DNA of 64,000 bases from Desulfomonilia bacterium (lineage in GTDB: Bacteria > Desulfobacterota > Desulfomonilia > UBA1062). Of the stretch, positions 4,168-40,918 are shown piece by piece; positions within the stretch are counted from its first letter, which is position 1; each line of letters begins with the position of its first letter. A program made the position numbers and the translations under genes. Under the pieces are notes generated by a model. The model searched no databases. It was not told the origin of the DNA and saw only the letters and a list, made by a program, of their open reading frames with translations. The stretch is from positions 64,001-128,000 of the forward strand of contig JBEKDT010000012.1 in the NCBI GenBank assembly GCA_050014195.1, read 5' to 3'.

Positions 4168-4517
4168 CTACGCTCCTGTTTCTTAAATCTACTATCCCTT
4201 CTCCCTGAGCCCTTGTAATAGGAACAGCTCGCACTGCTGCGACGGAGCGGATTTAAGGATTCAATCGTTGATAAAATACTTTTTTCACTCCTTCCGCCTC
4301 AAGGGATCTCCCGCACACAGAAGAAAGGGAATGATGCTCTTTCCCTATTATTACACGTTCATTCCTCGGGGTGAAATGTTTTCGTGGGTGATTACTGCAG
4401 AGAATGGTGAAAATATGTTTTCTATAGCCAAGATAATGATAAATTGTCTCTGACCCGAAATATCCGCTCTCGGAAAACCAAGACAAGGGGACACAACTAT
4501 TTAGACGTTATATCGTT

Positions 4518-5099
4518 TTACCAGCTTTTGTTCAAACAGATGCCGAAATATGAATAACCCGCCTCCGGCTGGATATCCCAACCTTTGTACGGCCGGGTAA
4601 TCAGATAGCTGCTCACGATGCCGATGGCCGCTCCCCCTATCACGTCGATCGTATAATGTCGTCCTGCCTCAACCCGGCTGTAAGCCACAAATGTTGCGAG
4701 GGCGTAAGCCGGCAATCCGTACTCCCATCCGTAACGCTTGCGCATGAACTCGGCAGAGATGAAGGAAATCGTAGCGTGTCCCGACGGGAATGATTGGTTT
4801 CCACCATTGGGTCGCGTCTTATCGATGGTGAATTTAAGGGCAAAAGTCGTGCCCATTGCCAGCGCCGCTGACTCACCAAACTCCCAAGTGCCCTGGCCAT
4901 CCTTAAAGCCGAAGGTCAGACCGGCTGCGGCGATAGGTAAGGCAAACACCAAAACGTTACCCGCTAATTCAATACGATCGTCAAAACGTTCGTTCGCTTG
5001 TGCGTCGATACCTGCCATGAGGCCGAACAGCGTTACGAACAGTAAAATGTTAATCCGGAGAATACGATGGTTCATCCCTGCTCCATGCGGCGATTGCAC
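4518..5099 (-). CDS. PAP2-family phosphatase (LpxE-like); start probably slightly downstream
   Basis: KxxxxxxRP, SFPSGH, SRVEAGRHY motifs. Confidence 0.9.
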   Translation of the reverse strand: MQSPHGAGMNHRILRINILLFVTLFGLMAGIDAQANERFDDRIELAGNVLVFALPIAAAGLTFGFKDGQGTWEFGESAALAMGTTFALKFTIDKTRPNGGNQSFPSGHATISFISAEFMRKRYGWEYGLPAYALATFVAYSRVEAGRHYTIDVIGGAAIGIVSSYLITRPYKGWDIQPEAGYSYFGICLNKSW

Positions 5100-28678: not shown

Positions 28679-28876
28679 GAATTCCCTCTTTGATGCATCA
28701 ATTAGTAGGGTATTATGCCAGGAAATCAACCCTGCCTGTGCAGCTGTTTCTTTAGTAGAATCCTAGGAAGTTTTGCAAGTGAAGATCTCTTCGATAAATG
28801 AGCGGTTTCACAAGACCTGAGAAACTGATGATAACGTGCCAGGTGCAACGCTCTGGTATAAAGTGTCTTGCTGCGT

Positions 28877-28940
28877 ATGTTTCAAACCAAGATCTTCGGT
28901 TTTCTCTCATCTCAAAACCGTGAAGAAATCGCGTGACTGT
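28877..28940 (+). repeat. Array site 2 (with a degenerate tandem copy at ~28783-28845)
   Basis: ATGTTTC-AAACC-AAGATCT-TC-GGTTTT-N10-AAAACC-GTGAAGAA-ATCGCG. Confidence 0.8.
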
Positions 28941-29231
28941 CGAAAAACTCAAAGTATGGAAAGTGACAAAAAAAGACCTCGTAGAATGACCTACGATGGA
29001 AGATCTTTGATCGGGGCTTGTGTTAGGAATCGACGATTGAATAGTAGAAACATAGGTACTCCATAAATAACAATCATAAGAACAATAAATCCTCATAAAA
29101 AGGTCTCAAGGTTATCAAGGATAGTTCTTAATCAGCTGCCAAACCTTACCAGCGGCCTCTTCCCCTTTCCCCTGGATCGAGGAGTTTGGTTGCCATCAAA
29201 ATAAACCTCAAGTAAGGGGGATGATACCGGG

Positions 29232-29396
29232 TCAGTCTTTAGTGCGGGTACGGGTCACCCCGGTCAAGATTCCGACGCCGACAAGTATGACAATCGCGAT
29301 CATCACATAAACAGTGCTCAATTTCGCGACAATAAGGGCCCACGCAATGCCGCCAATGACAAAAGCAAAACCGATGAGATAAATTATCAAGGACAT
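29232..29396 (-). CDS. Small two-TM membrane protein, 54 aa (not in ORF track)
   Basis: MSLIIYLIGFAFVIGGIAWALIVAKLSTVYVMIAIVILVGVGILTGVTRTRTKD; RBS AGGAGG. Confidence 0.8.
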   Translation of the reverse strand: MSLIIYLIGFAFVIGGIAWALIVAKLSTVYVMIAIVILVGVGILTGVTRTRTKD

Positions 29397-29446
29397 GGAG
29401 TTACCTCCTGCTGAACCCAGCGACTTTTTAGGATTTTAAGTTATAA

Positions 29447-29465
29447 CCTCCGGTAAAGCCGGAGG
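29447..29465. mobile_element. IS200/IS605-type terminal hairpin remnant
   Basis: CCTCCGG-TAAAG-CCGGAGG. Confidence 0.45.
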
Positions 29466-29672
29466 CTTGATTAAACATGAACCGCTCCAAGTGGCTTTAC
29501 CGGATAACAATTGTCCCTACCTGAACATGTTCATGTTCTGACATCTTGAATTTGGGCATACTGACTGATAGGTCTGTTGTTACATACACTTTATCCAGCA
29601 AAGAGGCCTTGATCATGTCTTTTTCATGTAATAGCACTGTTCGATCTTCTTTGCGTATCGACAAAGATCTCA

Positions 29673-30107
29673 TTATCTCCTTACGATGAGAACGGGCTTC
29701 TGTGCCTTCCGGACCACTGTATCCGTAACAGATCCAAGCAACATCTCAACGATATTGCTCTTTCCATGAGAGCCCATTATGATAGCCGATACATTTTCTT
29801 CCTCCGCCACCCTGAGGATCTCCCTGAATGGAATACCCTTATTAATTTGGGCCTTGGCGATAAAACCTTGTTCCTTTAACTCATCTTCCAGGCTGGAGAT
29901 CTCATTGAGCGCCAGTTCCTCCCATTCCTTCTCAACAGCAAGAGCATCTATCGCTGTTGAGTTGCGGAAAGAATCAATACCTCTCTCGTCAATGATGTAT
30001 AAAATGATCACTTCTTTAGTGCCTGCACCCTTTAATCCAACGATATAGGGTAATGCCTTTTTTGCGACTTCTGAAAAATCAGTTGGGTATAAGATTTTCT
30101 TAAACAT
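29673..30107 (-). CDS. Universal stress protein (Usp)
   Basis: KKILYPTDFS, IIMGSHGKS..LLGSVT..PVLIVR. Confidence 0.95.
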   Translation of the reverse strand: MFKKILYPTDFSEVAKKALPYIVGLKGAGTKEVIILYIIDERGIDSFRNSTAIDALAVEKEWEELALNEISSLEDELKEQGFIAKAQINKGIPFREILRVAEEENVSAIIMGSHGKSNIVEMLLGSVTDTVVRKAQKPVLIVRR

Positions 30108-30111
30108 ATTC

Positions 30112-30260
30112 CTACACTTTCTCCTTTTCCTCTCCACTGAAAGGGATCTTGAGTTCGTAGACAGCGGATTCCAAGTGAGTTTCTATGGGGTGTCCTGTCT
30201 TTGAGAACACCTTCATCATGGGGGTATTTCGTGCCAGGACATCTGCCGTGAATCCTTTAA
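30112..30260 (-). pseudogene. C-terminal fragment of a GNAT-domain protein, cut by a palindromic element at ~30270-30335
   Basis: IKGFTADVLARNTPMMKVF..YELKIPF; upstream sequence is CCTCGCAGC/CCTCGCATC repeats. Confidence 0.6.
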
Positions 30261-30466
30261 TCTCGTCCGGGTTAATTCCTCGCAGCTTTCTGCATTCCAT
30301 TTTGCTTTTTATACCTCGCATCTCTGCCGCCGGGTGGTTCACTTCTATTCCGGCTAGGCACCCCTCTTTTTTAAGCAGAAAGGAACATCCTCCGGCCGGT
30401 CGCCGTGTAGGAATGGGCGAGATTGAATCCTAGCGACTGTTCCACATCCCCGCTGGACCAGGATAG

Positions 30467-30658
30467 TTACTTCCCAACGTGGATATTGGAGAAGGAACTG
30501 AGAACTCCAAAAACGCTCAGGAGCCACAAGACAACGGCAATGACAACGACGGCATTCAAGATCGACTTGATGGAGCTCGCCATCGGGATGAATCGGTTGA
30601 TGAGCCAGAGAACAACACCAGTTACGACCAGGACTTCCACTACTTGAATTAAGGGCAT
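30467..30658 (-). CDS. Thivi_2564-family small membrane protein
   Basis: GVVLWLINRFIPMASSIKSILNAVVVIAVVLWLL. Confidence 0.85.
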   Translation of the reverse strand: MPLIQVVEVLVVTGVVLWLINRFIPMASSIKSILNAVVVIAVVLWLLSVFGVLSSFSNIHVGK

Positions 30659-30818
30659 GATCTAATTCTCCTTGTTTTGTCGACGAAAGCAGAACACTTA
30701 GGTCCGTTCCCGCTTATGCGCTGCTGGGTGAAGCCGATATGAGGTTCAAGCTCGCCGCCATACGTTCAAGAGCACTTGGCGCCATTTTTTGCACGTGACA
30801 CCAAACAAGCTCGGCCGC

Positions 30819-30974
30819 CTAAAGCCGACCCAGTAGCAGCAGGATGATCAGAATGACCAGGACAATTCCCAGCCCCCCGCTCGGGTAGTAACCCCACTCT
30901 CGGCTGTGAGGCCATGTGGGTATTGCACCTACCAGCATCAAAATCACGACGATAATCAAAATAGTTGCCAGCAT
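30819..30974 (-). CDS. Second DUF3309 small membrane protein, 51 aa (not in ORF track)
   Basis: GAIPTWPHSREWGYYPSGGLG; RBS AGGAGG. Confidence 0.9.
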   Translation of the reverse strand: MLATILIIVVILMLVGAIPTWPHSREWGYYPSGGLGIVLVILIILLLLGRL

Positions 30975-31039
30975 ATGGCTCCTCCTTTCAGTTTATCCGT
31001 GAACGTAGCGTTGGGCGGATACTTTCAACGGCCTTGGCC

Positions 31040-31140
31040 ATTTGAACTTTGAAGCCCTAGCTGTTGAAGGCAGTCTTGACATCCGTCCAGACGTTTTCTG
31101 TACCTGTCTTGAGGTCCTCCCATGCATCATCGCCGTTGGC
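31040..31140 (-). pseudogene. Fragment of coiled-coil stress protein (sll1863-like)
   Basis: NGDDAWEDLKTGTENVWTDVKTAFNS followed by a premature stop. Confidence 0.55.
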
Positions 31141-31232
31141 CCTTATCCTTCCCCTAAGGGGATGGCCGTAGGAGGACCCTCACCACTGCGCCAGAAAGTC
31201 AACCCAGGTTGCCGATTTTATAAAAAATTCTA

Positions 31233-31802
31233 CTAAAACCGATTTAGATCCGTTTCCAATGAGTCAAGCCGATGGGAAATGTCTGTTCTCTCCTCGTACG
31301 TGGCGTATCTGCCTTCTTCCGTCATCCGAAAATAATCACTCCGGATGGCGTCTAGTCTGGCTTGAAATTCTCTCCCCTCTGTCTGAGGCAAGCGCCCGTT
31401 GGTTCTTCCATCATCGATTCTCCTTTGGAGTGAGACAATCCTGTCCCCATTCCTTGGTTCTCTTGGTTGTTCAATTTTTGCAGGCCGGGCAAGCGCTCTG
31501 TCGATCTCCGCTCCAAGCGCATCAAGTCTTATATGAAGCTTGTCCCATTCGTCCCGCTCGACCCTTTTGTCTCTCAGCTCCGTATAGTCTGTTCGAATAC
31601 CCTTCAGTGTCGTGAGAAACATCTGGGACTGATCAGGGCTAAGCGCACCGGATTTCAGCCCATCCCCGATCTTCTCCTGGATTACAACCATCTTGCTCTC
31701 TGCATTCCTTTCAGAATCCGGCCATGTTTGGATAGTAGCGCAGCCCGAAAATAAGGCTAATCCGAAAATCGTTAACACTGACAGCAGAATAACCTTCTTC
31801 AT
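31233..31802 (-). CDS. Helical-repeat lipoprotein, hypothetical
   Basis: Lipobox FSGC; two internal repeats (I.DG..SG.L); RBS AGGAGG. Confidence 0.8.
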   Translation of the reverse strand: MKKVILLSVLTIFGLALFSGCATIQTWPDSERNAESKMVVIQEKIGDGLKSGALSPDQSQMFLTTLKGIRTDYTELRDKRVERDEWDKLHIRLDALGAEIDRALARPAKIEQPREPRNGDRIVSLQRRIDDGRTNGRLPQTEGREFQARLDAIRSDYFRMTEEGRYATYEERTDISHRLDSLETDLNRF

Positions 31803-31812
31803 TTGTCACCTC

Positions 31813-31872
31813 CTATTTTACAATCAGGTCGTTTTTCACCGATTTGACACCCTCAATGCTGTCGGCAATCTC
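31813..31872 (-). pseudogene. 3' remnant of a BON-domain gene
   Basis: EIADSIEGVKSVKNDLIVK*, similar to the end of the 11132-11446 protein. Confidence 0.6.
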
Positions 31873-32042
31873 TTAAGAGTGCGGTTATCAGCCCGACGCA
31901 GACGAGGAATTTCACCATACGATCTCGTTTTACCATACAGGCATCTCCTTTCCCGTAGAGGACCATATGAGGAATTCCATGGAGTCCTTTTTATTGGAAC
32001 CTTATGTATAATAATCATCAGATTGTTCCGGGCAAGGTTGCA

Positions 32043-32266
32043 TGACACATACTATCCCCTGGTGAACTCGATAGGAATGTCCCCATGTGAGTTTGATAGA
32101 TCGGCCTCATGTAGGGGCCATGGGGGTTTTAGTGATGAGCAGGAAGGAACGGGTACGGTTATAGGTAATGGGATGGAAGGAGCGGAGCGGGATCAGCCTT
32201 GTAATGGCCGCAGAGGCGATGGGAGTAAGCTATCGGCAGGCGAAGCGGATCTGGAAGCGATACAGG
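32043..32266 (+). mobile_element. ISNCY/IS1202-like left end + transposase N-terminal remnant
   Basis: AACTCGATAGGAATGTCCCC end motif; ORF from 32120 MGVLVMSRKERVRL*..AAEAMGVSYRQAKRIWKRYR (HTH) with an internal stop. Confidence 0.65.
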
Positions 32267-32540
32267 CCGGCTGTTCAGGGATGTTGACAACAACGTCTTC
32301 AATGATGAAGGACTGGCAGGCTACTACAAACCCGGAAGCCCTTTCTTCGTCGGTCAGCTGTATGTCTGATTTACATGCAACAGAGCCGCGGGTTATCTGG
32401 ACCAGGCATTTTCCACAGGTCCCTTTTCCTCCGCAGGGCAGCTCGATCATGATCCCTGCCCGGCCCGCGGCATCCATGAGCAAGGTGCCGGAAGGGACGT
32501 CTATGGTTTTTCCTATGGGAAGAAAGGTGATTTTCGGCAT
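32193..32540 (-). pseudogene. Duplicated 5' part of the RACo gene: complete [2Fe-2S] domain fused to antisense IS sequence
   Basis: Near-identical to 27779-28056 (six substitutions seen); CGGKGTCGKC..AC retained. Confidence 0.85.
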
Positions 32541-32693
32541 ATGAATTTTAGTCTTATCTTTAACTGGACCCCTCACCCTGACACTCTCCCCATAATTATA
32601 TGGGAGAGAGAGGACTGGAGATTCATGGCTTTTATGTATCATACTCCCTGTAGATCATCATGCATAAAAACTTTTTTATTCTCTCATATGCAT

Positions 32694-32758
32694 AGATCTC
32701 ATTTGAATATCTGGAATAATCTGGACCAATAAAAATCAGATAGTTATCGCAGTAATCT
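32694..32758 (+). repeat. Array site 3 (long-flank type)
   Basis: AGATCTCATTTGAATATCT...AGATAGTTATCGCAGTAATCT. Confidence 0.85.
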
Positions 32759-32782
32759 CTACTCTTGAGTTTGCTTAGGATG

Positions 32783-32816
32783 AAAAAAAGCAGGGCCTGA
32801 AATTGACCCTGCTTTT
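32783..32816 (-). terminator. Intrinsic terminator of PEP-CTERM gene 1
   Basis: AAAAGCAGGG..CCCTGCTTTT hairpin with T-run on the minus strand. Confidence 0.8.
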
Positions 32817-32837
32817 AAAATCTTGAGAACCGTAATG

Positions 32838-33359
32838 TTACTTTTTTATCTTCTTTCTAAACCCTGCTAAACCTAACAGACCAGAGCCCAGAAGGAGTAT
32901 GGTGGTCGGTTCAGGGACAGGGGCGCCTTTATCATATTTGAGACATAAAGTGGATGTATCAAGATAGAAAGGAGTTAGACAATTTTTATATGTCATACAT
33001 ACATCAAGGTTTTCTCCAAGATCCCATGTGGCAAATGTACCAGTAATATCGAAAGTTTTATCTCCCCAAAAGAATAATTTATTGTTGCTTATGGTACCCG
33101 TGAAATCATCATTTACATACACCTTATCTTTACTTGGATTTATAAAGAATCCACAGAGTGTAAGTTTTGCTTTGGTTACCACGTCAGGCGGAACCTCAAG
33201 CCCTAGGGGTGTGGGCTGTACCCATGATAGTGTTCCGGAACCAAACAGGTGAGCTTTGTCTAAATCTACTGTACTGGTAAAAACAAGAGCATTCCCTACA
33301 CTACTTACAGCGAACAATAAAACAAATACGCTCAAACAAGAGATAATAACCTTTTTCAT
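32838..33359 (-). CDS. PEP-CTERM sorting-domain protein 1
   Basis: Signal peptide; VPEPTTILLLGSGLLGLAGFRKKIKK. Confidence 0.93.
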   Translation of the reverse strand: MKKVIISCLSVFVLLFAVSSVGNALVFTSTVDLDKAHLFGSGTLSWVQPTPLGLEVPPDVVTKAKLTLCGFFINPSKDKVYVNDDFTGTISNNKLFFWGDKTFDITGTFATWDLGENLDVCMTYKNCLTPFYLDTSTLCLKYDKGAPVPEPTTILLLGSGLLGLAGFRKKIKK

Positions 33360-33398
33360 AATAAACCTCCCAGTTGTTGTTATTGTTAGTTTAAATAA

Positions 33399-33593
33399 TG
33401 CAATAATCAGGCCAATAGAATAATTGTTTTAATTTTAATATAATAGAACGATAATTAAGAGATGAACTTGCTCTATTGTAAATTTTATCGACACTAAAAT
33501 TTATGGTTCTTATGCGAAAAATCCGATAATCACTTTGATTCCATAGCAGTACAAATCATTGCACAATAAATAGTACTGTAAATTAATTCGACA
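33399..33593 (-). promoter_or_regulatory. sigma54 promoter + two TGT-N11-ACA enhancer boxes
   Basis: TGGCCT-GATTA-TTGCA 33414-33399; TGTAAATTTTATCGACA 33477-33493; TGTAAATTAATTCGACA 33577-33593. Confidence 0.8.
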
Positions 33594-33726
33594 GTGATCT
33601 TTTATTCTGACAGAGGCAGATTACTATCTTGCTGGTTGAATAAAAGCCCTCCGCCATCCTGGCTGGCAATTGAAAGTGTAGATAACGTGCCAATCGTTAC
33701 GCTCTGCCGTGATATGACAATTTCGA

Positions 33727-33788
33727 AGATCTGTTCTCAAGATCATCAGTTTTATTCATCTTAAACTGAGATGATATCTTAGTGATCA
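33727..33788 (+). repeat. Array site 4
   Basis: AGATCTG-TTCTC-AAGATCA-TC-AGTTTT-N9-AAACTG-AGATGAT-ATCTTA-GTGATCA. Confidence 0.8.
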
Positions 33789-33861
33789 ACAACATTGATT
33801 GAGGTGAATTATCATGGTAGATGCGGTTATCCATTAAAACACGTTAAGGTAATCATTAAAG

Positions 33862-34317
33862 ATGAATAAGCTGAAAACTGTTCTCGTTTATTTTATAGTC
33901 TTATCCTTGGGAATTGTATGTGGAGGTTATTTGTTCTCCCAATCACAACCCAGATCATTTTTATCAATATCGAATTGTCAACATTGTTTAAGTGAGAATG
34001 ATCTTGTCGGGCTGCTTGCCTCAGTCGGTATACAAAAATTTTCTAAGCTTATCCCTTCTGTTGTATTCGAAACGGACAAAACAATCGCCATTAAGATCCC
34101 GGATACACAGGTTCGTTATCACTATGTCATTATTCCTAAGAAAGACATCAAGAATATCGGTGAACTTACTGATGCCGATGCTCAATATTTAATTGATACA
34201 TTTTTTGTAGCAAGAAAGATCATTGAGGATAAGAACTTATTCAAATATACCCTTCATACAAATGGACCTGGTATTCAAGACGTTACATATTTACATTTTC
34301 ATTTGATAGCCGAGTGA
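33862..34317 (+). CDS. HIT-like domain protein with N-terminal TM/signal
   Basis: HYVIIPKKDI, NGPGIQDVTYLHFHL. Confidence 0.85.
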   Translation: MNKLKTVLVYFIVLSLGIVCGGYLFSQSQPRSFLSISNCQHCLSENDLVGLLASVGIQKFSKLIPSVVFETDKTIAIKIPDTQVRYHYVIIPKKDIKNIGELTDADAQYLIDTFFVARKIIEDKNLFKYTLHTNGPGIQDVTYLHFHLIAE

Positions 34318-34668
34318 CACCGCATCTACCACCACTGTCCCGATCCGCTTCTGATATAAATCGCTTCGCCCTTAATCCTTCAACCATTTCCTATTTACTC
34401 GATGGGAAAACGCAGGAGTCTGCGCTTTTGTGGAGATGCAAGGACGTGTGTCATACCTGGCATCTCAAATAACCAGTCTATATACGTCCTGAGCAATAGT
34501 CCATTCATGAACTCACCCACTTGGGATAGAGGGAGCAAATCAAAACTCTTCCTGCTCGAATAAGGCGATCTTATCTTGAGATTGGTCCTAGGTATCAATG
34601 CCCATCGTGATATTATCGCATGGCATGGCATCAAATGTGGGTTTCAAGATGATGTGGGAAGGAATGAG

Positions 34669-34734
34669 AGATCCTGGATAAGATATTATGGTTGAGTAGA
34701 TGGAGGTGGGATTGATGAGTTATTGCAGGGATCT
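34669..34734 (+). repeat. Array site 5 (degenerate centre)
   Basis: AGATCCT..AAGATAT...GATGAGTTATTGCAGGGATCT. Confidence 0.65.
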
Positions 34735-34764
34735 TTATTTTTCATAGGGTATAAAACGATAGTC

Positions 34765-35160
34765 TCAAAACGGTGCACACAAATAGGACATGAAATTATT
34801 CAAGCCTTTATCATCTTTTCGTGTGAAGATAATTGCCATCCCTGAATCAGTCTTCCGCACCACTTGCCCGATGACCCAGATTACCTTGCCGAACGGCTCT
34901 ACATTAAGGCTAGCACTTACAAAACCATCAACATTAGGGCAATGCCCTGTCTCAACGAACATTCCACCCTTGCTGATGTTACAGACTCTTCCCATCCTGT
35001 TCGCATAATCATTGTCACGATAAGAGAACATCATGTTTACCCTTACTCTCTTATAAGCCCGCTGATTATCCGTAGTCTGAGATATTTTTGCATGAGAAAT
35101 AATTGACGTAGGTTCTTTCAAAACAGTATCCTCCACTTGCAAGCAAAACAGTATAACCAT
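34765..35160 (-). CDS. PilZ-domain protein filling the gap between sites 5 and 6
   Basis: QRAYKRV (RxxxR), NISKGG (D/NxSxxG), GQVVR..GMAIIF. Confidence 0.85.
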   Translation of the reverse strand: MVILFCLQVEDTVLKEPTSIISHAKISQTTDNQRAYKRVRVNMMFSYRDNDYANRMGRVCNISKGGMFVETGHCPNVDGFVSASLNVEPFGKVIWVIGQVVRKTDSGMAIIFTRKDDKGLNNFMSYLCAPF

Positions 35161-35206
35161 AAGTTAACCTGCCATGTCATTTGAATACATAATTAACATC
35201 ATCTAT

Positions 35207-35269
35207 AGATAATATTTCAAGATCATCGGTTTCTGGGCCTTACAAAACCAGAAAGTTATCGCAGAATCA
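35207..35269 (+). repeat. Array site 6 (intron-free reference copy)
   Basis: AGATAAT-ATTTC-AAGATCA-TC-GGTTTC-N10-AAAACC-AGAAAGTT-ATCGCA-GAATCA. Confidence 0.85.
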
Positions 35270-35304
35270 TCGCGTTAACAGTTAGACAGGAATAGATGAA
35301 AAAC

Positions 35305-35337
35305 AAAAAAAGGCAGGGCCTTTCAATGACCCTGCTT
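35305..35337 (-). terminator. Intrinsic terminator of PEP-CTERM gene 2 (homologous to 32783-32816)
   Basis: GCAGGG..CCCTGC hairpin with A7 run. Confidence 0.75.
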
Positions 35338-35361
35338 CTGATATCCAGTCAATATGTTGTA

Positions 35362-35979
35362 TTACTTTTTCAGCTTTTTCCTGAACCCTGCTAGCCCAAT
35401 AAGACCTGATCCAAGAAGAATCATTGTACATGGTTCAGGAACAGGGGGAGTTTTTACAATTAGATCTTGAGCTTTAAAGGGAAGTGTTGTGGGTAGGGCC
35501 ATTTCAGCAATCTCATACCCTGTACCAGTATAATCATATCCTTTAAAATCTTCCATATATTTTGTGAAGTCAGCTTGGACTGTTGGATTACTGATATTAG
35601 TAATCTGTCCATACATAATATCCCATATTGCCAACTGCAATGCTGGAGTATCTGCTTTATTACCCTCTTTGTTAATCAACCATGCTGATTCATAACCAAG
35701 ATAGTCATGGTTTAGGTTGTTAGTAAGGGATACATTATAGTATGTATAAGGAACGTATGTTACATCATACAGGTCAACACAATATCCTGTTGTAGGCTGC
35801 CCATTAATGTTGAGATGAAACTGTCCAGCATACTCACCTGTAGGATTGCCGTTCAAATCAAAATTAACGTAGGTATAGTCATTGATGCTACCAGTAATAT
35901 TGATTGTATTTGCTCCTACTGATGCTGTGAAGCCAAGCACGATAAGTAGTAATGCAACTGTCATGGAAAATTTTTTCAT
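35362..35979 (-). CDS. PEP-CTERM sorting-domain protein 2
   Basis: Signal peptide; GYCVDL, ALQLAIW; VPEPCTMILLGSGLIGLAGFRKKLKK. Confidence 0.93.
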   Translation of the reverse strand: MKKFSMTVALLLIVLGFTASVGANTINITGSINDYTYVNFDLNGNPTGEYAGQFHLNINGQPTTGYCVDLYDVTYVPYTYYNVSLTNNLNHDYLGYESAWLINKEGNKADTPALQLAIWDIMYGQITNISNPTVQADFTKYMEDFKGYDYTGTGYEIAEMALPTTLPFKAQDLIVKTPPVPEPCTMILLGSGLIGLAGFRKKLKK

Positions 35980-36016
35980 ATTGACCTCGTAGATGTTGTT
36001 TTATTAGCGATTATTA

Positions 36017-36032
36017 TCCAATATTTATGCCA
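36017..36032 (-). promoter_or_regulatory. sigma54-like promoter with non-consensus -12 (TTGG)
   Basis: TGGCAT-AAATA-TTGGA at the same position as the PEP-CTERM 1 promoter. Confidence 0.55.
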
Positions 36033-36297
36033 ATTAACGTATGTCTTTGATATAAATAATTAATTACTTCAGACAGTATAAAATAGGGGTATTGGCGTAA
36101 TGGATAAAATAGAAATATATTTCCATAAAGATAGTAATTATTTACATCAATAAAATGCGTAGAACGGCCTATCGATTTCTATGATCATAGAACCAGATAA
36201 CTGTAAATCATACCATCTATAACTGATTGATAAGGTATAATTAATAGATTACGTTATTTGTCATGTGTCACACCCAGAGTTGGTTTGATCTTTTCAT

Positions 36298-37001
36298 AGA
36301 TCTTATTTCAAAATCATCGGTTTTGTGTGTCACGAATGCCGAGAGGCAATGCTGTGTAGGAGATGAGGGGAGGCCCCTCGGAGCCGGTTTACAGGAGCAG
36401 GCTTCAAACCGCCCTAAGCTGCGATGGTAAAGAGCCATGGTGGTGAGCGTTAGGGAAAAGGCGCAAGGAATGCGTCAGGTAGTATCGGAGAGACGAGCGA
36501 AAGCGAACCAATCGATGAGGCATCGAAAATGATCACAGATGATGTCAAAACCAGGGTCCAAAACTAACTCTGGGAACAGCTCAGAGGAAACCTGTTTACT
36601 GTCTGAGCGGCATCCGGTGTAGAGATGGTGTGAATCCGATACGGGCTTTTACACGGAACGTGAGAACCTGTCGTCTGGATGAGAAGGGAGAAATCCAAGG
36701 AGAGGCCCCCCGAGGATGAGAGTACCGATGCCAGGCACAGGGGCGGGACAGCTCGTAGTAGTGAAGAAGCTCCTGTAATGGGAGTGGAGCGAAGGGGCTG
36801 TGTTGTTCAGGAGGTATTTATTGATCAACCAGAAATGGGAGGAATCAATGAGTATTGCCAAGCCAAGCTATACGATTGGCTGAACAATGGGAGCCGGATG
36901 AGCTGAGAGGTTCACGTCCGGTTCTACGAGCAGCTGGGGGTGAAATTCCCCTGGCTGACTTTCCCAGGAATTTCAAAACCAGAAAGTTATCATAGGAATC
37001 T
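36298..37001 (+). repeat. Array site 7, split by a group II intron
   Basis: AGATCTTATTTCAAAATCATCGGTTTT | intron | CAGGAATTTCAAAACCAGAAAGTTATCATAGGAATCT. Confidence 0.85.
36325..36964 (+). mobile_element. ORF-less group II intron ribozyme (bacterial class D, RmInt1-like)
   Basis: 5' GTGTG; RmInt1-like D1-D3 (GGTAAAGAGCCATGGTGGTGAGCG, AAGGGAGAA, GAGAGTACCGATG); D5 GAGCCGGATGAGCTGAGAGGTTCACGTCCGGTTC; D6 GGGGTGAAATTCCCC; IEP reduced to MSIAKPSYTIG*. Confidence 0.92.
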
Positions 37002-37103
37002 TCAGTCCCATCTTCCAATAAGATATTTCATTTCATAAAAAGGAAGTGACTCATATACACTTTGTCTAATCTATTGAACTAGCCCAATTATGATGTTATC
37101 TTT

Positions 37104-37352
37104 TTATTTAACTCCCCAAGCACGATTAGGTTGACACCTAAAAAAAATATATTTAATGGACCAGGTTCGAAAGTTGGATTTTGATAGGTGTATCCATTCA
37201 GTAAAATGAGTAGAAAAAGAAGACAAACTATTGGGAATATCCCTTTCCACATAAGAACCTCCTGTACTCATAAGCTTAGATAAGCCCCTTTTAGATAAAA
37301 TCTCCATAGTGAAAGTCAATAGGCTTAGATGACAACATTTGGTTAAAGTCAT
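37104..37352 (-). CDS. Hypothetical protein (only ORF between sites 7 and 8)
   Basis: ORF track only; AT-rich; no recognised motif. Confidence 0.3.
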   Translation of the reverse strand: MTLTKCCHLSLLTFTMEILSKRGLSKLMSTGGSYVERDIPNSLSSFSTHFTEWIHLSKSNFRTWSIKYIFFRCQPNRAWGVK

Positions 37353-37428
37353 TATAAACTTATAATCAAGGGTATGTATACGTTGCGGTGCCAGGGTGAC
37401 ATGCTTAGATATGGAGGCCTTGCTGCAT

Positions 37429-37491
37429 AGGTTTCAACTTAAGATCATCAGTTTCAGGCATTATAATACCGAGAAGAAATCGCAATAATCT
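37429..37491 (+). repeat. Array site 8
   Basis: AGGTTTC-AACTT-AAGATCA-TC-AGTTTC-N9-AATACC-GAGAAGAA-ATCGCA-ATAATCT. Confidence 0.8.
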
Positions 37492-37647
37492 TTACCCTAG
37501 AGAAAATAAGCTAAATCCCTTTTGATATGATTATAAATCATCGAACTATCAATGGCCGTTAGATCTTGCCACTGTAAGTCTTCTTAAATTTATCAAAATT
37601 AAAGGAGCATATACATCTCTCCTATAGCTCACCTATGATTCATTTTC

Positions 37648-37851
37648 TCACATATGCAATTTCAGCTCGATAATATATGAACCTTCTCCCGTTGTGTATT
37701 TCTCAACTCCTACACCGACATCACGCATTGTAAAGCCAGATGTTTTAGCCGTATTATCGATGTCCTTAATGCATTGAGTAAGCAATTTAAATATTTGTAT
37801 TTTAGTACGCTCAACATTTAATTTGTTGGCCTGTAGAGTTTTTTCCTCCAT
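37648..37851 (-). CDS. Hypothetical 67-aa protein under a sigma54 promoter
   Basis: RBS AAGGAG; MEEKTLQ...IELKLHM. Confidence 0.65.
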   Translation of the reverse strand: MEEKTLQANKLNVERTKIQIFKLLTQCIKDIDNTAKTSGFTMRDVGVGVEKYTTGEGSYIIELKLHM

Positions 37852-37953
37852 GACCGTTCTCCTTTTTCCTCGCATCAGGAGGATCATATGATGATATGTC
37901 TAAGATGAGTTCTAGTTGAAAGTGAATTTTGATAATATATCTAAGCTAGTGTA

Positions 37954-38116
37954 GGCAAATTATGTGCCATCACATAACAGTTTGATATATTTATTTTAAT
38001 TTTATCGTCCTTCCGAAGAATGCAAAGTAATTCGACAGTTCATTATGCTGTATACTTTATATAACATTGAAATTATTAATATTTATATAGGAGCATAACT
38101 GTTAAATATTTCGACA
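37954..38116 (-). promoter_or_regulatory. sigma54 promoter + two enhancer boxes of the PEP-CTERM type
   Basis: TGGCAC-ATAAT-TTGCC 37969-37954; TGCAAAGTAATTCGACA 38021-38037; TGTTAAATATTTCGACA 38100-38116. Confidence 0.8.
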
Positions 38117-38148
38117 GTTCAATTTGATATTTAACACCAATGAACTGA

Positions 38149-38248
38149 AGATTTCGTGCCATGGATCACGCTTAGCCTATAGTATATATCTCTTGAGTTA
38201 ATATCTGGTTGACCATAACTGAAGATGTCGTGACTCTATATGTGGATT
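38149..38248 (+). repeat. Variant array element (homologous to 42594-42691)
   Basis: AGATTTCGTGCCATG..ATATCTG..ACTGAAG..GTG..GGATT; two AGAT-N3-GTG boxes 74 bp apart in both copies. Confidence 0.7.
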
Positions 38249-38251
38249 GAT

Positions 38252-38336
38252 AAAAACCGGACCGCACAAGGGAGCGATCCGGCTTAAGAGGAGGTCAAAA
38301 GTCCGTTCGTCAAGGATGACGAGGAGAGTTTGACTG
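38252..38336 (-). ncRNA. Candidate ~85-nt small RNA
   Basis: TTGCAT-18-TAAACT promoter (38371-38342); 5' hairpin; CTCTCCTC and ACCTCCTCT motifs; terminator CCGGATCGC/GCGGTCCGG + TTTTT; no ORF. Confidence 0.55.
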
Positions 38337-38508
38337 ACAATAGTTTATAAGATCGACTTTGGAAAATGCAACCTTGACGATTCTATGCGGTCTTCTTGGG
38401 CTTCTCATGGGTGGTGTGGAAAGAACCAAAGAATCCTTCAATTCGTAAATCCCTTTTTCAACAGACTCTGCCAGTATCGGCACTCTTACATGATATGACC
38501 ATTTACAT

Positions 38509-39071
38509 ATATCTCATCCGGAGATCATCGGTTTTGTATGTCACGAATGCCGAGAGGCAATGCTGTGTAGGAGATGAGGGGAGGCCCCTCGGAGCCGGTT
38601 TACAGGAGCAGGCTTCAAACCGCCCTAAGCTGCGATGGTAAAGAGCCATGGTGGTGAGCGTTAGGGAAAAGGCGCAAGGAATGCGTCAGGTAGTATCGGA
38701 GAGACGAGCGAAAGCGAACCAATCGATGAGGCATCGAAAATGATCACAGATGATGTCAAAACCAGGGTCCAAAACTAACTCTGGGAACAGCTCAGAGGAA
38801 ACCTGTTTACTGTCTGAGCGGCATCCGGTGTAGAGATGGTGTGAATCCGATACGGGCTTTTACACGGAACGTGAGAACCTGTCGTCTGGATGAGAAGGGA
38901 GAAATCCAAGGAGAGGCCCCCCGAGGATGAGAGTACCGATGCCAGGCACAGGGGCGGGACAGCTCGTAGTAGAGAAGAAGCTCCTGTAATGGTAATGGGA
39001 GTGGAGCGAAGGGGCTGTGTTGTTCAGGAGGTATTTATTGATCAACCAGAAATGGGAGGAATCAGGGATCT
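38509..39071 (+). repeat. Array site 9, carrying the 5' part of the intron; only the terminal GGGATCT box of its right half remains
   Basis: ATATCTCATCCGGAGATCATCGGTTTT | intron fragment | GGGATCT. Confidence 0.8.
38536..39064 (+). mobile_element. Truncated second copy of the group II intron (D1 to start of D4; D5/D6 lost)
   Basis: Near-identical to 36325-36847; starts GTATG; has a GTAATG duplication. Confidence 0.9.
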
Positions 39072-39428
39072 ACAATCCACCCTTAGGAGAAGATGTCTCA
39101 AGTTGTTTATTAAAAGCAGGGTCTCATTATGCAGCCCCTGTCATGCAGCCCCTTGCCCGGAACAATCTGATGATTATTATATAAGGTTCCAATAAAAAGG
39201 ACTCCATGGAATTCCTCATGTGGTCCTCTACGGGAAAGGAGATAACTTTATGGGAAAATGGGATTCGTCATAGGAGTTTTTGTAATGATAGTTCTAGTGC
39301 TTGCGATTGTCTATTTTTAATGCATAGAACACAAGATTTTATGCAAGATACCATCCAAAAAGGAGAAATCGATGGAAAACATTTCTCAGGGAATGAGACA
39401 GATTTTGGATGAACAAATAGTATCTATA

Positions 39429-40295
39429 ATGAAGTCCAAGCTCTTGATTCTATTCGTAGTAGCGGCATTGGCCTCGCTTCTTTACCCACCCTTGGTATCG
39501 GCCACGCCAATACTGGGTTCGGCGCAGAGCTTCGCGGTTCTGGGTCACGAAACGGTGACCAATGGCCATAGCGCCCCGAACCCAACCACTCAAATATACG
39601 GGAATTTGGGTGTGACGCCAAAAACTTCGGTCACTGGCTTTTATCCTGACGGGACCGTGAGCGGAGGAACGATACACATAAATGATGGGGTCGCGCAACT
39701 TGCTCTGGCGGATGCAACGACTGCGTACAATACGCTAGCAGGCTTGCCGTTCGTTTACAACTATACTGGTTTTGTCCTGGGTTCAGCGGGATACACCACG
39801 CTCACGCCGGGTGTCTATCATTTTGACTCATCGGCTCAGTTGACAGGAGCACTCACTCTCGATTTCGAAAACGAGTCCAATAAGGACTTCATTTTCCAGA
39901 TAGGGAGTACGCTCACGACCGCAAGCAGCTCTTCTGTTAACGTCATCAATGGGAATTCAACTGACGGTGTGTATTGGCAGGTCGTAAGTTCTGCGACTCT
40001 GGGTTCAGACACTACATTCGAAGGAAATATTCTTGCTCTTGCAAGTGTTAGCCTTGATCCTCGCGCACAGATTCTGTGCGGGAGAGCCATCGCGCTAACT
40101 GGGGCAGTGTCGTTGATAGACAATCTTATCTCCAACAATAACACCGCCCAAAACTTCGGTAGCGGCCGCTCCGACTTCGGCAGCTACGGCTTCAGTGGCA
40201 GCGCGGCGCCGGTCCCGGAACCCTCAACCATGCTCCTCCTTGGCTCCGGGCTGCTTGGATTGGTGTCATTGGGGAAAAGGTTCAAGAAAGTTTGA
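39429..40295 (+). CDS. DUF3494 ice-binding-like protein with PEP-CTERM tail
   Basis: LGSAQSFAVL, A..DA..AYN.L, TLTPGVY, FIFQIGSTLTTA, VYWQV.SSATLG, F.GNILA; VPEP tail. Confidence 0.9.
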   Translation: MKSKLLILFVVAALASLLYPPLVSATPILGSAQSFAVLGHETVTNGHSAPNPTTQIYGNLGVTPKTSVTGFYPDGTVSGGTIHINDGVAQLALADATTAYNTLAGLPFVYNYTGFVLGSAGYTTLTPGVYHFDSSAQLTGALTLDFENESNKDFIFQIGSTLTTASSSSVNVINGNSTDGVYWQVVSSATLGSDTTFEGNILALASVSLDPRAQILCGRAIALTGAVSLIDNLISNNNTAQNFGSGRSDFGSYGFSGSAAPVPEPSTMLLLGSGLLGLVSLGKRFKKV

Positions 40296-40340
40296 TCAGG
40301 CGTAACAGACGCATTCTTCAGGGGGCAGGTCAGTAAGATT

Positions 40341-40437
40341 GAGATATATGAGGTTGACCCGCTAACCTGCCCCACGTGTTACGGCACGATGCGATACTGG
40401 CCTTCGTCGAGGAAGAGCCGGTAATCCGAAAATACTG
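40341..40437 (+). mobile_element. IS91-family transposase C-terminal remnant (frameshifted)
   Basis: IYEVDPLTCPTCYGTM / ILAFVEEEPVIRK. Confidence 0.7.
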
Positions 40438-40609
40438 CGTACAAAGAATCAGAAATTGGTGACGTGTTCACATTATTCCCCTGCAAGGATGAAAAATAGA
40501 AACGTCCCCTTTTCTCTTTGGGGAGAGGGGACTGGAGATTCATGGCTTTTATGTCTCATACTCCCTGCAGATCATCATGTATAAAAACTATTCATTCTCT
40601 CATATGCAC

Positions 40610-40674
40610 AGATCTCATTTGAATATCTGGAATAATCTGGACCTATAAAAATCAGATAGTTATCGCAGTAATCT
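40610..40674 (+). repeat. Array site 10 (long-flank type; flank homology from ~40520)
   Basis: Same ~150 bp as 28120-28267 and 32602-32752, ending ATCGCAGTAATCT. Confidence 0.85.
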
Positions 40675-40918
40675 CTGCTATCGGATAATTAAAACCATCA
40701 AAACAATATATTATAACACGATCTCTTCAATACGTTGTCATACTTTCTAAACTCTAAAGTTTTAAGAGTAAAAATCCGTTTAATACCATAGTGTAATTTC
40801 CTTATGTTGTTTCATGATTATTAGGTCACGAGAAGAAGTTCGATCTTAGAAGTTTTACAAGCAAATTAGTTCTCAGGAATGCTTTTATTACAGGCACCAG
40901 AACTGGAGGAAGGCGAAC

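What the first reader, a model, noticed from the sequence alone, without database searches (positions are those of the whole stretch)
36325..36964. ORF-less class D group II intron whose exon-binding sites are tuned to the array site
Seen in sequence: a complete ~640-nt ribozyme with GTGTG start and intact D5/D6. Its RT gene has collapsed to ATG AGT ATT GCC AAG CCA AGC TAT ACG ATT GGC TGA (start fused to end). The loop of CCAGGGT-CCAAAACTA-ACTCTGG gives EBS1 AAAACT, which pairs with GGTTTT immediately 5' of the insertion. ATGATC upstream gives EBS2, which pairs with (G)ATCAT. Removing the intron restores a normal site with a 10-nt loop. Established: IIC-attC introns target integron attC sites, while RmInt1-type class D introns use EBS1/EBS2. 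Inference: a class D intron has independently specialised on this repeat, which supports the repeat being an abundant functional site, and it moves using an IEP supplied in trans.
Basis: partly seen in the sequence, partly recalled or inferred. Interest (0 to 1): 0.8.

Follow-up and report, generated by a model that had tools for sequence, protein, structure and literature searches.

The report
ORF-less intron homing to hairpin repeat
This is a real self-splicing-type group II intron that has lost its own reverse-transcriptase gene and sits at one fixed spot of a repeated DNA hairpin that its RNA is built to base-pair with; it is a neat but not fundamentally new example of a "hitch-hiking" mobile intron.

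Summary
Window 36325-36964 is a complete 640-nt group II ribozyme: Rfam D1 115 bits and D5/D6 48.5 bits, and 60 of 207 predicted pairs show compensatory changes against a sister lineage.

A full-length parent (1,852 nt, 412-aa RT/maturase) was found in a metagenome contig. It sits at the same position of the same repeat. The window copy matches it at 95-97% on both sides of a roughly 1.2-kb deletion.

The mini-ORF is about 10 N-terminal codons joined to the sequence just after the parent's stop codon, so the TGA is fortuitous.

The EBS1 and EBS2 assignments are confirmed. They align with the tested sites of RmInt1, and three EBS versions within this lineage each match their own exon.

Class D is likely. 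The IEP is 51% identical to RmInt1's, lacks an endonuclease domain and keeps the PxLFxHW core. No tree with labelled references could be built.

The target is a genus-restricted AT-rich hairpin repeat, with 79 copies in this genome. It is not the integron attC: 0 hits in 197 kb around 12 IntI genes.

This assembly holds no group II IEP, so the copies are stranded for now. Past mobilisation in trans is inferred. This is a new member of known kinds.

The parts
36296..36324 (+). 5' half of the target hairpin repeat (5' exon). IBS2 is at 36312-36317 (AATCAT) and IBS1 at 36318-36324 (CGGTTTT).
   Evidence: family D4; repeat HMM; pairing.
36325..36964 (+). Complete ORF-less group II intron (copy W1 of lineage F1), 640 nt, running from GTGTG to CTTTCC.
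   Evidence: Rfam hits. 98% identical copy on contig C24. Covariation. 95-97% identical to the full-length parent L104 on both sides of the deletion.
36529..36534 (+). EBS2 (ATGATC), in the loop between the stem arms GGCATC and GATGTC.
   Evidence: Positionally homologous to RmInt1's EBS2 (ATGAA). Co-varies with the exon in L012 and L005.
36551..36573 (+). EBS1 hairpin. EBS1 itself is AAAACTA at 36560-36566.
   Evidence: Predicted by RNAalifold. Column-for-column homology with RmInt1's EBS1 (TTTCGTC). Own-versus-other exon matrix.
36848..36883 (+). Mini-ORF, the scar of the IEP deletion in domain IV. About 10 N-terminal codons are fused to post-stop D4 sequence.
36891..36924 (+). Domain V (catalytic hairpin, 34 nt).
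   Evidence: RF00029. All pairs kept.
36927..36964 (+). Domain VI, with the bulged branch-point A at 36958, 7 nt from the 3' end.
   Evidence: Same spacing as in F2.
36965..36995 (+). 3' half of the target repeat (3' exon): CAGGAATTTC loop, AAAACC arm and the GTTATCATAG end box.
   Evidence: (family D2).
38507..38535 (+). 5' half of a second copy of the target repeat (GAGATCATCGGTTTT).
38536..39064 (+). Second F1 copy (W2). It is a 5' fragment covering D1-D3 and the start of D4. It starts GTATG, carries a 6-nt duplication, and ends where the ORF would start. It lacks D5 and D6, so it is dead.

Best explanation
Window 36325-36964 is a non-autonomous (ORF-less) member of an RmInt1-like, endonuclease-less group II intron lineage (probably bacterial class D / IIB3), here called F1.

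The parent element is 1,852 nt long and encodes a 412-aa RT/maturase. It retrohomes into the top strand of a genus-restricted AT-rich hairpin repeat. The intron RNA pairs EBS2 (ATGATC) and EBS1 (AAAACTA) with (G)ATCAT and GGTTTT in the 5' arm of the hairpin. It reverse-splices exactly at the boundary between that arm and the loop.

A roughly 1.2-kb deletion in domain IV removed the ORF from about codon 10 through its stop codon. It left domain IVa and the start region in place. The shortened element kept a selected, foldable ribozyme. It spread to at least one more repeat copy using an IEP made by a full-length relative.

In this genome there are 2 complete ORF-less copies (98% identical) and 1 dead 5' fragment. 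No group II IEP is present, so the copies are stranded for now.

Shown: the anatomy, the parentage, the EBS/IBS pairing with covariation, the target specificity, and the absence of an IEP from the assembly.

Inferred: splicing activity, mobilisation in trans, and priming from the lagging strand as in RmInt1.
For: 1. Ribozyme. Rfam D1 and D5/D6 hits. 60 of 207 pairs are compensatory between F1 and F2, and the branch A is bulged.

2. Parentage. L104 is a 1,852-nt full-length element with an RVT_1+GIIM IEP and no endonuclease domain. W1 is 95.2% and 96.6% identical to it on the two sides of the deletion.

3. Target. The F1-type copies fall into 8 distinct loci by their flanks. 7 of those 8 lie directly after ATC[A/T]TC[G/A]GTTT[T/C]. 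These are W1, C24, W2, L004/L091, L104/L130, L112 and L113. Full-length copies occur at 2 of them. The host repeat copies differ from each other while the introns are 95-100% alike, so these are independent insertions.

4. EBS sites. They are homologous to the experimentally defined RmInt1 sites. L036 shows IBS1 GATGAGA and EBS1 TTTCGTC, as quoted in PMC4075523 (passages). Covariation: AAAACTA/CGGTTTT, CAAACCA/TGGTTTG (L012), TTTTGTT/AACAAAA (L005), GTTATCG/CGATAAC and TTTATCG/CGATAAA (F2), AGTCGTT/GACGACT (L034).

5. Movement after ORF loss. W1, C24, L094 and L118 share the same junction at 2 different 5' flanks.

6. Class. The IEP is 51% identical to RmInt1's over 403 aa, against 36% to another S. 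meliloti intron class. RmInt1 is class D/IIB3 according to PMC5894124 and PMC4615759 (passages). RmInt1 and W1 hit the same Rfam D1 sub-model.

7. Reality in nature. Contigs from 3 peat or wetland DNA runs bridge both junctions.
Against: - There is no group II IEP in this 29-contig, 100%-complete assembly. RVT_1 gives 1 hit, a non-intron 436-aa RT. tblastn with the F2 IEP finds only that RT, at 25% identity. GIIM finds only a 59-aa remnant on C17. So the copies cannot be moving now, and no helper was found in any of the 122 genomes of the class.
- Only 3 sites are occupied, while 16 unoccupied repeat copies pair at 12 or more of 13 positions.
- Splicing is not shown. No contig skips the intron, and the RNA run held only conserved fragments at 90-99% likeness.
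- The class D motif LX3AX3PXLF[V/A]HW is only partly kept: 5 of 8 fixed positions in the F1 IEP and 6 of 8 in F2.
- No tree with labelled class C or E references could be built.
- The intact IEP is seen in one metagenome contig. In L130 the same element reads as a shorter frame (383 aa), with a one-base difference near the ORF's start.
- The shared junction could in principle have spread by gene conversion between copies rather than by retrohoming.
Confidence: 0.78

Rival explanations
1. The copies did not retrohome. The intron was carried passively when the repeat, or a cassette bounded by it, was duplicated or recombined.
For: The repeat forms cassette-like clusters. Some copies share a 5' flank but differ in the 3' flank: L094 against W1/L118, and L104 against L130. 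So recombination at or between copies does occur.
Against: The introns are 98% identical to each other. The surrounding repeat copies and flanks differ strongly beyond about 15 nt (alignment columns 1-45 and 705-776). 7 distinct loci carry the element at exactly the same nucleotide position. EBS variants match their own, different exons, which passive carriage does not explain.
Confidence: 0.05
2. It is an attC-homing intron like the IIC-attC group: it recognises an integron recombination hairpin by its structure.
For: The target is an imperfect hairpin with bulges and sits in same-orientation arrays of small genes. IntI scores over the curated cut-off in 8 of 14 sister genomes of the genus. 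W1 is antisense to the neighbouring ORFs.
Against: The repeat HMM gives 0 hits in 197,005 bases around 12 IntI genes in 9 genomes, against 13 hits in 43,008 control bases. Beside the IntI of G007 there is a different, GC-rich repeat. G000 has no IntI: its best score is 82.7 bits against a cut-off of 265. The intron has a co-varying EBS2 and a 640-nt IIB-type ribozyme. IIC introns lack EBS2 (PMC4075523, passage). Recognition here is by base pairing to the stem arm, not by a hairpin lying upstream.
Confidence: 0.05
3. The window copy is a decaying relic that never moved after losing its ORF. The shared deletion junction spread by homologous recombination or gene conversion among copies.
For: There is no IEP in the genome. 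W2 is truncated and mutated (GTATG). Many good targets are empty. There is evidence of recombination between copies.
Against: W1 differs from F2 by compensatory changes and keeps all catalytic elements. In the sister lineage F2, one ORF-less form sits at 7 loci in 3 species with 92-99% identity. Independent ORF-less derivatives recur (L122 has a different junction). This fits a successful non-autonomous life style, as in T. elongatus (PMC2882425, passages).
Confidence: 0.12

Closest known systems
RmInt1 and RmInt2 of Sinorhizobium meliloti (bacterial class D / IIB3, endonuclease-less IEP)
   Same: - Same Rfam D1 sub-model.
- Collinear EBS1 and EBS2 loops with one unpaired exon base between IBS2 and IBS1.
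- An IEP of about 415 aa with RT and X domains only, 51% identical.
- The PxLFxHW core of the class D C-terminal motif.
- The habit of homing into a multi-copy sequence. RmInt1 uses ISRm2011-2 and RmInt2 uses the inverted repeats of ISRm17 (PMC5894124 and PMC4615759, passages).
   Different: - The window copy has no IEP.
- The target is a non-coding AT-rich hairpin repeat rather than an insertion sequence.
- The class D motif is only partly conserved.
- The host is a different phylum-level group found in peat and wetland samples.
TeI3 ORF-less introns of Thermosynechococcus elongatus (PMC2882425, passages read)
   Same: - An ORF deletion in domain IV that leaves terminal remnants.
- The same break-point at several sites with good EBS/IBS pairing.
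- Divergence into EBS families.
- Twintrons in the same guild.
- Mobilisation by IEPs of related introns.
   Different: - That system's introns encode an IEP with an En domain; this lineage's IEP has none.
- Helper IEPs are present in the same genome there, and none is found here.
- Here at least 3 independent deletions occurred: F1 (W1 type), F1 (L122 type) and F2. There, it was a single deletion.
- Trans-mobilisation was shown experimentally there and is only inferred here.
Group IIC-attC introns such as S.ma.I2 (PMC4424553, passages; PMC3001079, abstract in a search listing)
   Same: A group II intron lineage specialised on a repeated, imperfect DNA hairpin that bounds small gene units, and inserted antisense to those genes.
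   Different: - IIC introns lack EBS2 and recognise a stem-loop. This intron is IIB-like and pairs with the stem arm through EBS1 and EBS2.
- The target is not the integron attC.
C.te.I1 of Clostridium tetani
   Same: An ORF-less bacterial intron in a genome without any IEP gene. A 2015 review calls this the sole known exception (PMC4424553, passage).
   Different: C.te.I1 sits in a gene and self-splices there. The present copies are intergenic and antisense, and their splicing is untested. This genome is a draft.
UHB.I2, a IIB1/CL1 intron lying just after an attC site in a soda-lake contig (PMC7923331, abstract and section 7 read)
   Same: A non-IIC intron associated with a repeated recombination-type hairpin in a cassette array.
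   Different: That report covers a single copy of a different class. It is oriented with the cassettes and shows no demonstrated EBS tuning to the repeat.

Membership tests
Group II intron ribozyme | Domain V catalytic hairpin, and domain VI with a bulged branch-point A | tested here: met
   RF00029 scores 48.5 bits against a gathering score of 40. All D5 pairs are kept, and A36958 is bulged 7 nt from the 3' end.
Group II intron ribozyme | 5' GUGYG, and a domain I that matches a curated D1-D4 model | tested here: met
   GTGTG at 36325. RF01999 scores 115.3 bits against a gathering score of 36.
Bacterial class D (IIB3) introns | The IEP falls in the class D clade of an RT/X phylogeny | tested here: inconclusive
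   The window copy has no IEP. The parent's IEP (L104) is 51% identical to RmInt1 over 403 aa, 57-59% to F2 and L034, and 36% to the other S. meliloti class. No labelled class C, E or g1-g4 references could be fetched, and the supplements listing class D members are closed.
Bacterial class D (IIB3) introns | An IEP with RT and X domains only, without D/En domains | tested here: met
   The L104 IEP is 412 aa with RVT_1 at 68-288 and GIIM at 313-385 and nothing else of note. The F2 IEP is the same.
Bacterial class D (IIB3) introns | C-terminal signature LX3AX3PXLF[V/A]HW (PMC4615759) | tested here: inconclusive
   RmInt1 (L036) matches fully. L034 has 1 deviation. F2 reads LGRIAKRNVDLFVLW (6 of 8). 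F1 reads IKRVKNQNPRLFCHW, where P, L, F, H and W are kept (5 of 8).
Bacterial class D (IIB3) introns | IIB-type exon recognition through EBS1, EBS2 and a single-base EBS3 | tested here: met
   EBS1 and EBS2 are met. EBS3/IBS3 was not located or tested.
Group IIC-attC introns | A small IIC ribozyme without EBS2 | tested here: not met
   The ribozyme is 640 nt without its ORF, and EBS2 co-varies. IIC introns have no recognisable EBS2 (PMC4075523, passage).
Group IIC-attC introns | The target is an integron attC site | tested here: not met
   0 repeat hits in 197 kb around 12 IntI genes. A different, GC-rich repeat lies beside IntI. G000 has no IntI.
Trans-mobilised ORF-less introns (TeI3-like) | A domain IV deletion with ORF remnants, found with the same junction at several sites that have good EBS/IBS pairing | tested here: met
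Trans-mobilised ORF-less introns (TeI3-like) | A related IEP-encoding intron in the same genome | tested here: not met
   Only a non-intron RT and a 59-aa maturase remnant are present. The genome is a draft of 29 contigs.
Trans-mobilised ORF-less introns (TeI3-like) | Mobility that depends on an IEP supplied in trans | not testable with these tools
   This needs a donor/recipient mobility assay.

The most novel reading that the evidence does not exclude
This genus hosts a guild of non-autonomous class D-like introns. Two sister lineages have lost the ORF at least three separate times. They parasitise a genus-specific hairpin repeat, attacking its two ends on opposite strands.

ORF-less copies persist, and perhaps spread, in genomes that encode no IEP at all. 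That would mean mobilisation by a transient, horizontally supplied RT ('hit and run') or by a host factor.

Probability: 0.15. Interest if true: 0.7.

Novelty: new member of a known kind. Interest (0 to 1): 0.42.

Why it matters
[quoted passage not shown] A 2015 review says they are almost always accompanied by a helper IEP (PMC4424553, passage).

Here the record is well resolved. A parent, two independent ORF-less derivatives and a sister lineage are all retargeted by a few EBS changes to parts of one genus-specific repeat. This is a clean natural example of how endonuclease-less introns retarget themselves and shed their ORF.

It also gives a ready-made natural pair for gene-targeting work of the RmInt1 kind: the 640-nt ORF-less RNA and the 412-aa IEP.

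It adds a second case of ORF-less copies in a genome without an IEP, with the caveat that the genome is a draft.

It does not show that the repeat is functional, and it is not a new mechanism.

Tried and rejected
- Orthologous empty site: a search of 15 genomes of the genus with window 35300-37900 found only mosaic pieces and no intact intron-less allele.
- Reads: contigs of 3 DNA runs bridge both junctions, but none skips the intron. The wetland RNA run (X17) gave only short pieces of conserved intron parts at 90-99% likeness and none on the flanks. This is no evidence either way on transcription or splicing.
- Full-length F1 in genomes: none in 41 relatives or in the 122 genomes of the class. 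It was found only in metagenome contigs.
- The 29-nt search word proved to be conserved beyond F1. 28 of the 63 loci have EBS1 AGTCGTT, a different homing type. My 5'-end regex failed for most of those loci, so their exons were not tabulated.
- Identity of the repeat:
  - It is not IntI-proximal.
  - Neither of the genome's two Y1 transposase genes lies next to a copy.
  - No Rfam family matches it at E up to 1.
  - It does not fit the attC core consensus as I recall it. That is a recalled motif and was not tested by any tool.
  - What the repeat does remains unknown.
- Promoter scan: 10 sites against 7.4 +/- 3.1 in shuffles, which is uninformative.
- Not attempted: EBS3/IBS3, tertiary contacts, and strand bias relative to replication.
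- Class label: the Simon et al. 2008 paper on ORF-less introns (PMC2525955) is not held. The supplements with class D member lists (PMC3552965, Table S1) are closed and may bear on the class label.
- Literature: 3 searches listed no paper on a natural ORF-less class D intron or on an intron homing to such a repeat. I saw only listings and the passages cited, so this is not proof that none is in print.
- F2 caveat: all 10 F2 copies follow the box C[T/G][T/G]CGAT.... But the 3' exon continues as the rest of the hairpin repeat in only 3 of 7 ORF-less copies (L006, L013, L014; the repeat HMM hits there). The 4 copies in G002 share only the end box.
Full report
Names used. F1 is the intron lineage of the window. 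W1 is its complete copy at 36325-36964, W2 the fragment at 38536-39064, and C24 the copy on contig C24. FL is the full-length parent found in locus L104. F2 is a sister lineage at about 71% identity. G000 is the window's own genome.

WHAT IS THERE. Window 36325-36964 (+) starts GTGTG. It is hit by two Rfam group II models: RF01999 (D1D4-2, 115.3 bits, 36365-36480) and RF00029 (D5/D6, 48.5 bits, 36889-36964). G000 is 4.2 Mb in 29 contigs and 100% complete. It holds three copies:
- W1, complete.
- C24 (C24:1841-2481), complete and 98% identical to W1.
- W2 (window 38536-39064), a 5' fragment. It starts GTATG, has a 6-nt duplication, and diverges exactly where the ORF would begin.

All three follow ATCATCGGTTTT directly.

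RIBOZYME INTEGRITY. F2 starts GTGCG. It has ORF-less copies of 675 nt in three sister species and a full-length form in G002. RNAalifold on 2 F1 and 4 F2 ORF-less copies predicts 207 pairs. Of these, 60 keep pairing through changes on both sides. D5 is fully paired. D6 has a bulged A 7 nt from the 3' end, at 36958. The intron end at 36964 is homologous to the F2 end ...CTCGAC. So the RNA is under selection for structure.

PARENTAGE AND THE MINI-ORF. A scan of public collections used a 29-nt D1 word that every F1 member shares. It found metagenome contigs carrying a full-length F1.
- L104 holds a 1,852-nt intron with a 412-aa IEP. The IEP has RVT_1 and GIIM domains and no endonuclease domain. 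It begins MGITKPYEISKK and ends ...NPRLFCHWHLADASL.
- W1 1-541 matches FL 1-544 at 95.2%, and W1 554-640 matches FL 1766-1852 at 96.6%.
- The parent's TAA stop lies immediately before GGCTGAACAATGG.

So the window's ATG AGT ATT GCC AAG CCA AGC TAT ACG ATT GGC TGA is about ten N-terminal codons (MSIAKP-S-YTI against MGITKP-YEI) joined to post-ORF domain IV sequence. But no C-terminal codon survives, and the TGA is fortuitous.

ORF loss recurred. F2 lost its ORF differently: MDKAKSF|GIIPATGQ* against the full MDKAKSF...GIKPSAGQ*. Another F1 copy (L122) has a third junction. All three retain domain IVa and the start region.

EXON-BINDING SITES. On a S. meliloti pSymA record I identified RmInt1 itself (L036). 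Its exon ends GATGAGA and its loop holds TTTCGTC. These are the IBS1 and EBS1 given in PMC4075523 (passages). The EBS1 hairpins align column for column:
- RmInt1: ACCAGGA-CCG-TTTCGTC-A-TCCTGGGA
- W1: ACCAGGG-TCC-AAAACTA-A-CTCTGGGA

This makes EBS1 AAAACTA (36560-36566), against exon positions -7 to -1, CGGTTTT. EBS2 ATGATC (36529-36534) is positionally homologous to RmInt1's ATGAA. It pairs with (G/A)ATCAT at -13 to -8, leaving one unpaired base before IBS1, as in RmInt1.

Covariation is decisive. Within F1, L012 (93% identical) has CAAACCA against TGGTTTG, with EBS2 AGATCA against TGATCT. L005 (90% identical) has TTTTGTT against AACAAAA, with EBS2 CAAATCT against AGATTTG. F2 has GTTATCG/CGATAAC or TTTATCG/CGATAAA, and L034 has AGTCGTT/GACGACT. 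Pairing with the intron's own exon averages 6.9 of 7, against 3.0 for other variants' exons.

TARGET SPECIFICITY. Eleven F1-type metagenome and MAG (metagenome-assembled genome) loci were examined. Together with the genome copies they give 8 distinct insertion loci by their flanks. Seven lie at the same nucleotide of canonical repeat copies. Two of the seven carry full-length elements (L104/L130 and L112). L122 lacks the last 11 exon bases. The host repeat copies differ from one another while the introns are 95-100% alike, so these are independent insertions.

THE REPEAT. An nhmmer profile finds 79 copies on 20 of 29 contigs, in small same-orientation clusters spaced 0.7-6 kb apart and in a few head-to-head pairs. 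The consensus is ...GTTTCAACCCAAGATCATCAGTTTT-CAGACATTTT-AAAACCGAGAAGAAATCGCAGGAATC. F1 inserts at the boundary between the 5' arm and the 10-nt loop.

A strict core pattern occurs in 9 of 15 genomes of the genus and in 0 of 26 outside it. The reversed-pattern control gives 0 everywhere.

It is not the integron attC.
- G000 has no IntI: its best score is 82.7 bits against a cut-off of 265.
- IntI scores over the cut-off in 8 of 14 sister genomes, with a partial ninth.
- The repeat profile gives 0 hits in 197 kb around 12 IntI genes, against 13 hits in 43 kb of control loci. Those controls are biased, because they were chosen for carrying introns.
- Beside the IntI of G007 lies a different, GC-rich repeat.

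ORFs between repeat copies in the window encode small, miscellaneous proteins (PEP-CTERM, HIT, PilZ), mostly on the opposite strand to the intron. What the repeat does is unknown.

F2 follows the box ...CGATAA[C/A], the reverse complement of the repeat's other end. In 3 of 7 ORF-less copies the 3' exon is the rest of the repeat.

CLASS. RmInt1 is class D/IIB3 (PMC5894124 and PMC4615759, passages). The F1 IEP is 51% identical to it, 57-59% to F2 and L034, and 36% to another S. meliloti intron class. It lacks an endonuclease domain and keeps 5 of the 8 fixed positions of the class D C-terminal motif. RmInt1, L034 and W1 share the Rfam D1 sub-model, while the other class hits RF02005. I rate class D as likely, about 0.8. 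It is not proven, because no labelled class C or E references or supplements were available.

MOBILITY. W1 and C24 share one deletion junction but sit in different repeat copies. This is best explained by retrohoming after ORF loss with an IEP supplied in trans, as in T. elongatus (PMC2882425, passages). In F2, one ORF-less form occupies 7 loci in 3 species at 92-99% identity.

G000, however, has no group II IEP, and 16 well-matching targets are empty. So the copies are now stranded. A 2015 review names only one other ORF-less bacterial intron without a resident IEP (PMC4424553, passage). The caveat is that this is a draft assembly.

The DNA contigs of three peat or wetland runs confirm both junctions. 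They give no empty allele and no splicing evidence.

VERDICT. It is a new member of known kinds: an RmInt1-like intron and a TeI3-like ORF-less derivative. It is not an attC-homing analogue and not evidence that the repeat is functional.

Noticed in passing
window 38536-39064: A second F1 copy, truncated. It has only the 5' part, starts GTATG, carries a 6-nt duplication, and ends exactly at the position of the ORF start. It sits in another copy of the same repeat.
   Followed up: partly
window 28780-40680; G000 genome-wide: An AT-rich hairpin repeat of about 80 nt has 79 copies on 20 of 29 contigs, restricted to this genus. It forms same-orientation clusters around small genes (PEP-CTERM, HIT, PilZ). 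It is not next to IntI in sister genomes, and this genome lacks IntI altogether. Its function is unknown.
   Followed up: partly
window 32603-32763 and 40520-40679: A direct repeat of about 160 nt, 92-93% identical and 7.9 kb apart, brackets the stretch that contains both intron copies (families D3 and D6).
   Followed up: no
L006, L013, L014, L016, L019, L020, L024, L022, L023, L026 (G002, G003, G007): The sister lineage F2 is about 71% identical. Its ORF-less form (675 nt) is at 7 loci, and it has a full-length form with a 417-aa IEP. It inserts after ...CGATAA[C/A], the other end of the same repeat on the other strand. EBS1 is GTTATCG or TTTATCG and co-varies with the exon.
   Followed up: yes
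L022:about 3094-5048 (G002:C18); L122:1-200: Twintrons. A different intron (Rfam RF02005 type) sits inside domain VI of the full-length F2 and also inside domain VI of an ORF-less F1 copy. This suggests an intron that homes into D6 of these introns.
   Followed up: partly
L034 (CP140947.1), L007 (G039), and 28 of the 63 loci L074-L136: Many relatives have EBS1 AGTCGTT. Where it was checked (L034, L007), they sit in the GACGAC(T) codons of the YADD motif of another reverse-transcriptase gene. So this is a widespread lineage that homes into other RT genes.
   Followed up: partly
L094 against window 36265-37020; L104 against L130: Copies with the same 5' flank have different 3' flanks. This points to recombination between intron copies or at the repeat.
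   Followed up: no
G000:C17:21046-21189 (L049): A 59-aa remnant of a group II maturase domain (GIIM, 55.8 bits) is flanked by stop codons, with no intron RNA nearby. It is a trace of an older IEP in this genome.
   Followed up: partly
G000:C10:107341-108651 (L021:1114-2424, minus strand): This is the only intact reverse transcriptase in the genome. It is 436 aa and AT-rich, with an RVT_1 domain only, 25% identity to intron IEPs, and no group II RNA around it. It may be a retron-like or defence-type RT.
   Followed up: no
L061:18734-19473 and L062:103-6986 (G007:C12): A GC-rich repeat (CCACCGGACGGCTAAAGCCGCCGGTGA), spaced 0.7-1.3 kb apart with one gap of 5.5 kb, lies next to a bona fide IntI. 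It is probably the genus's true attC array.
   Followed up: no
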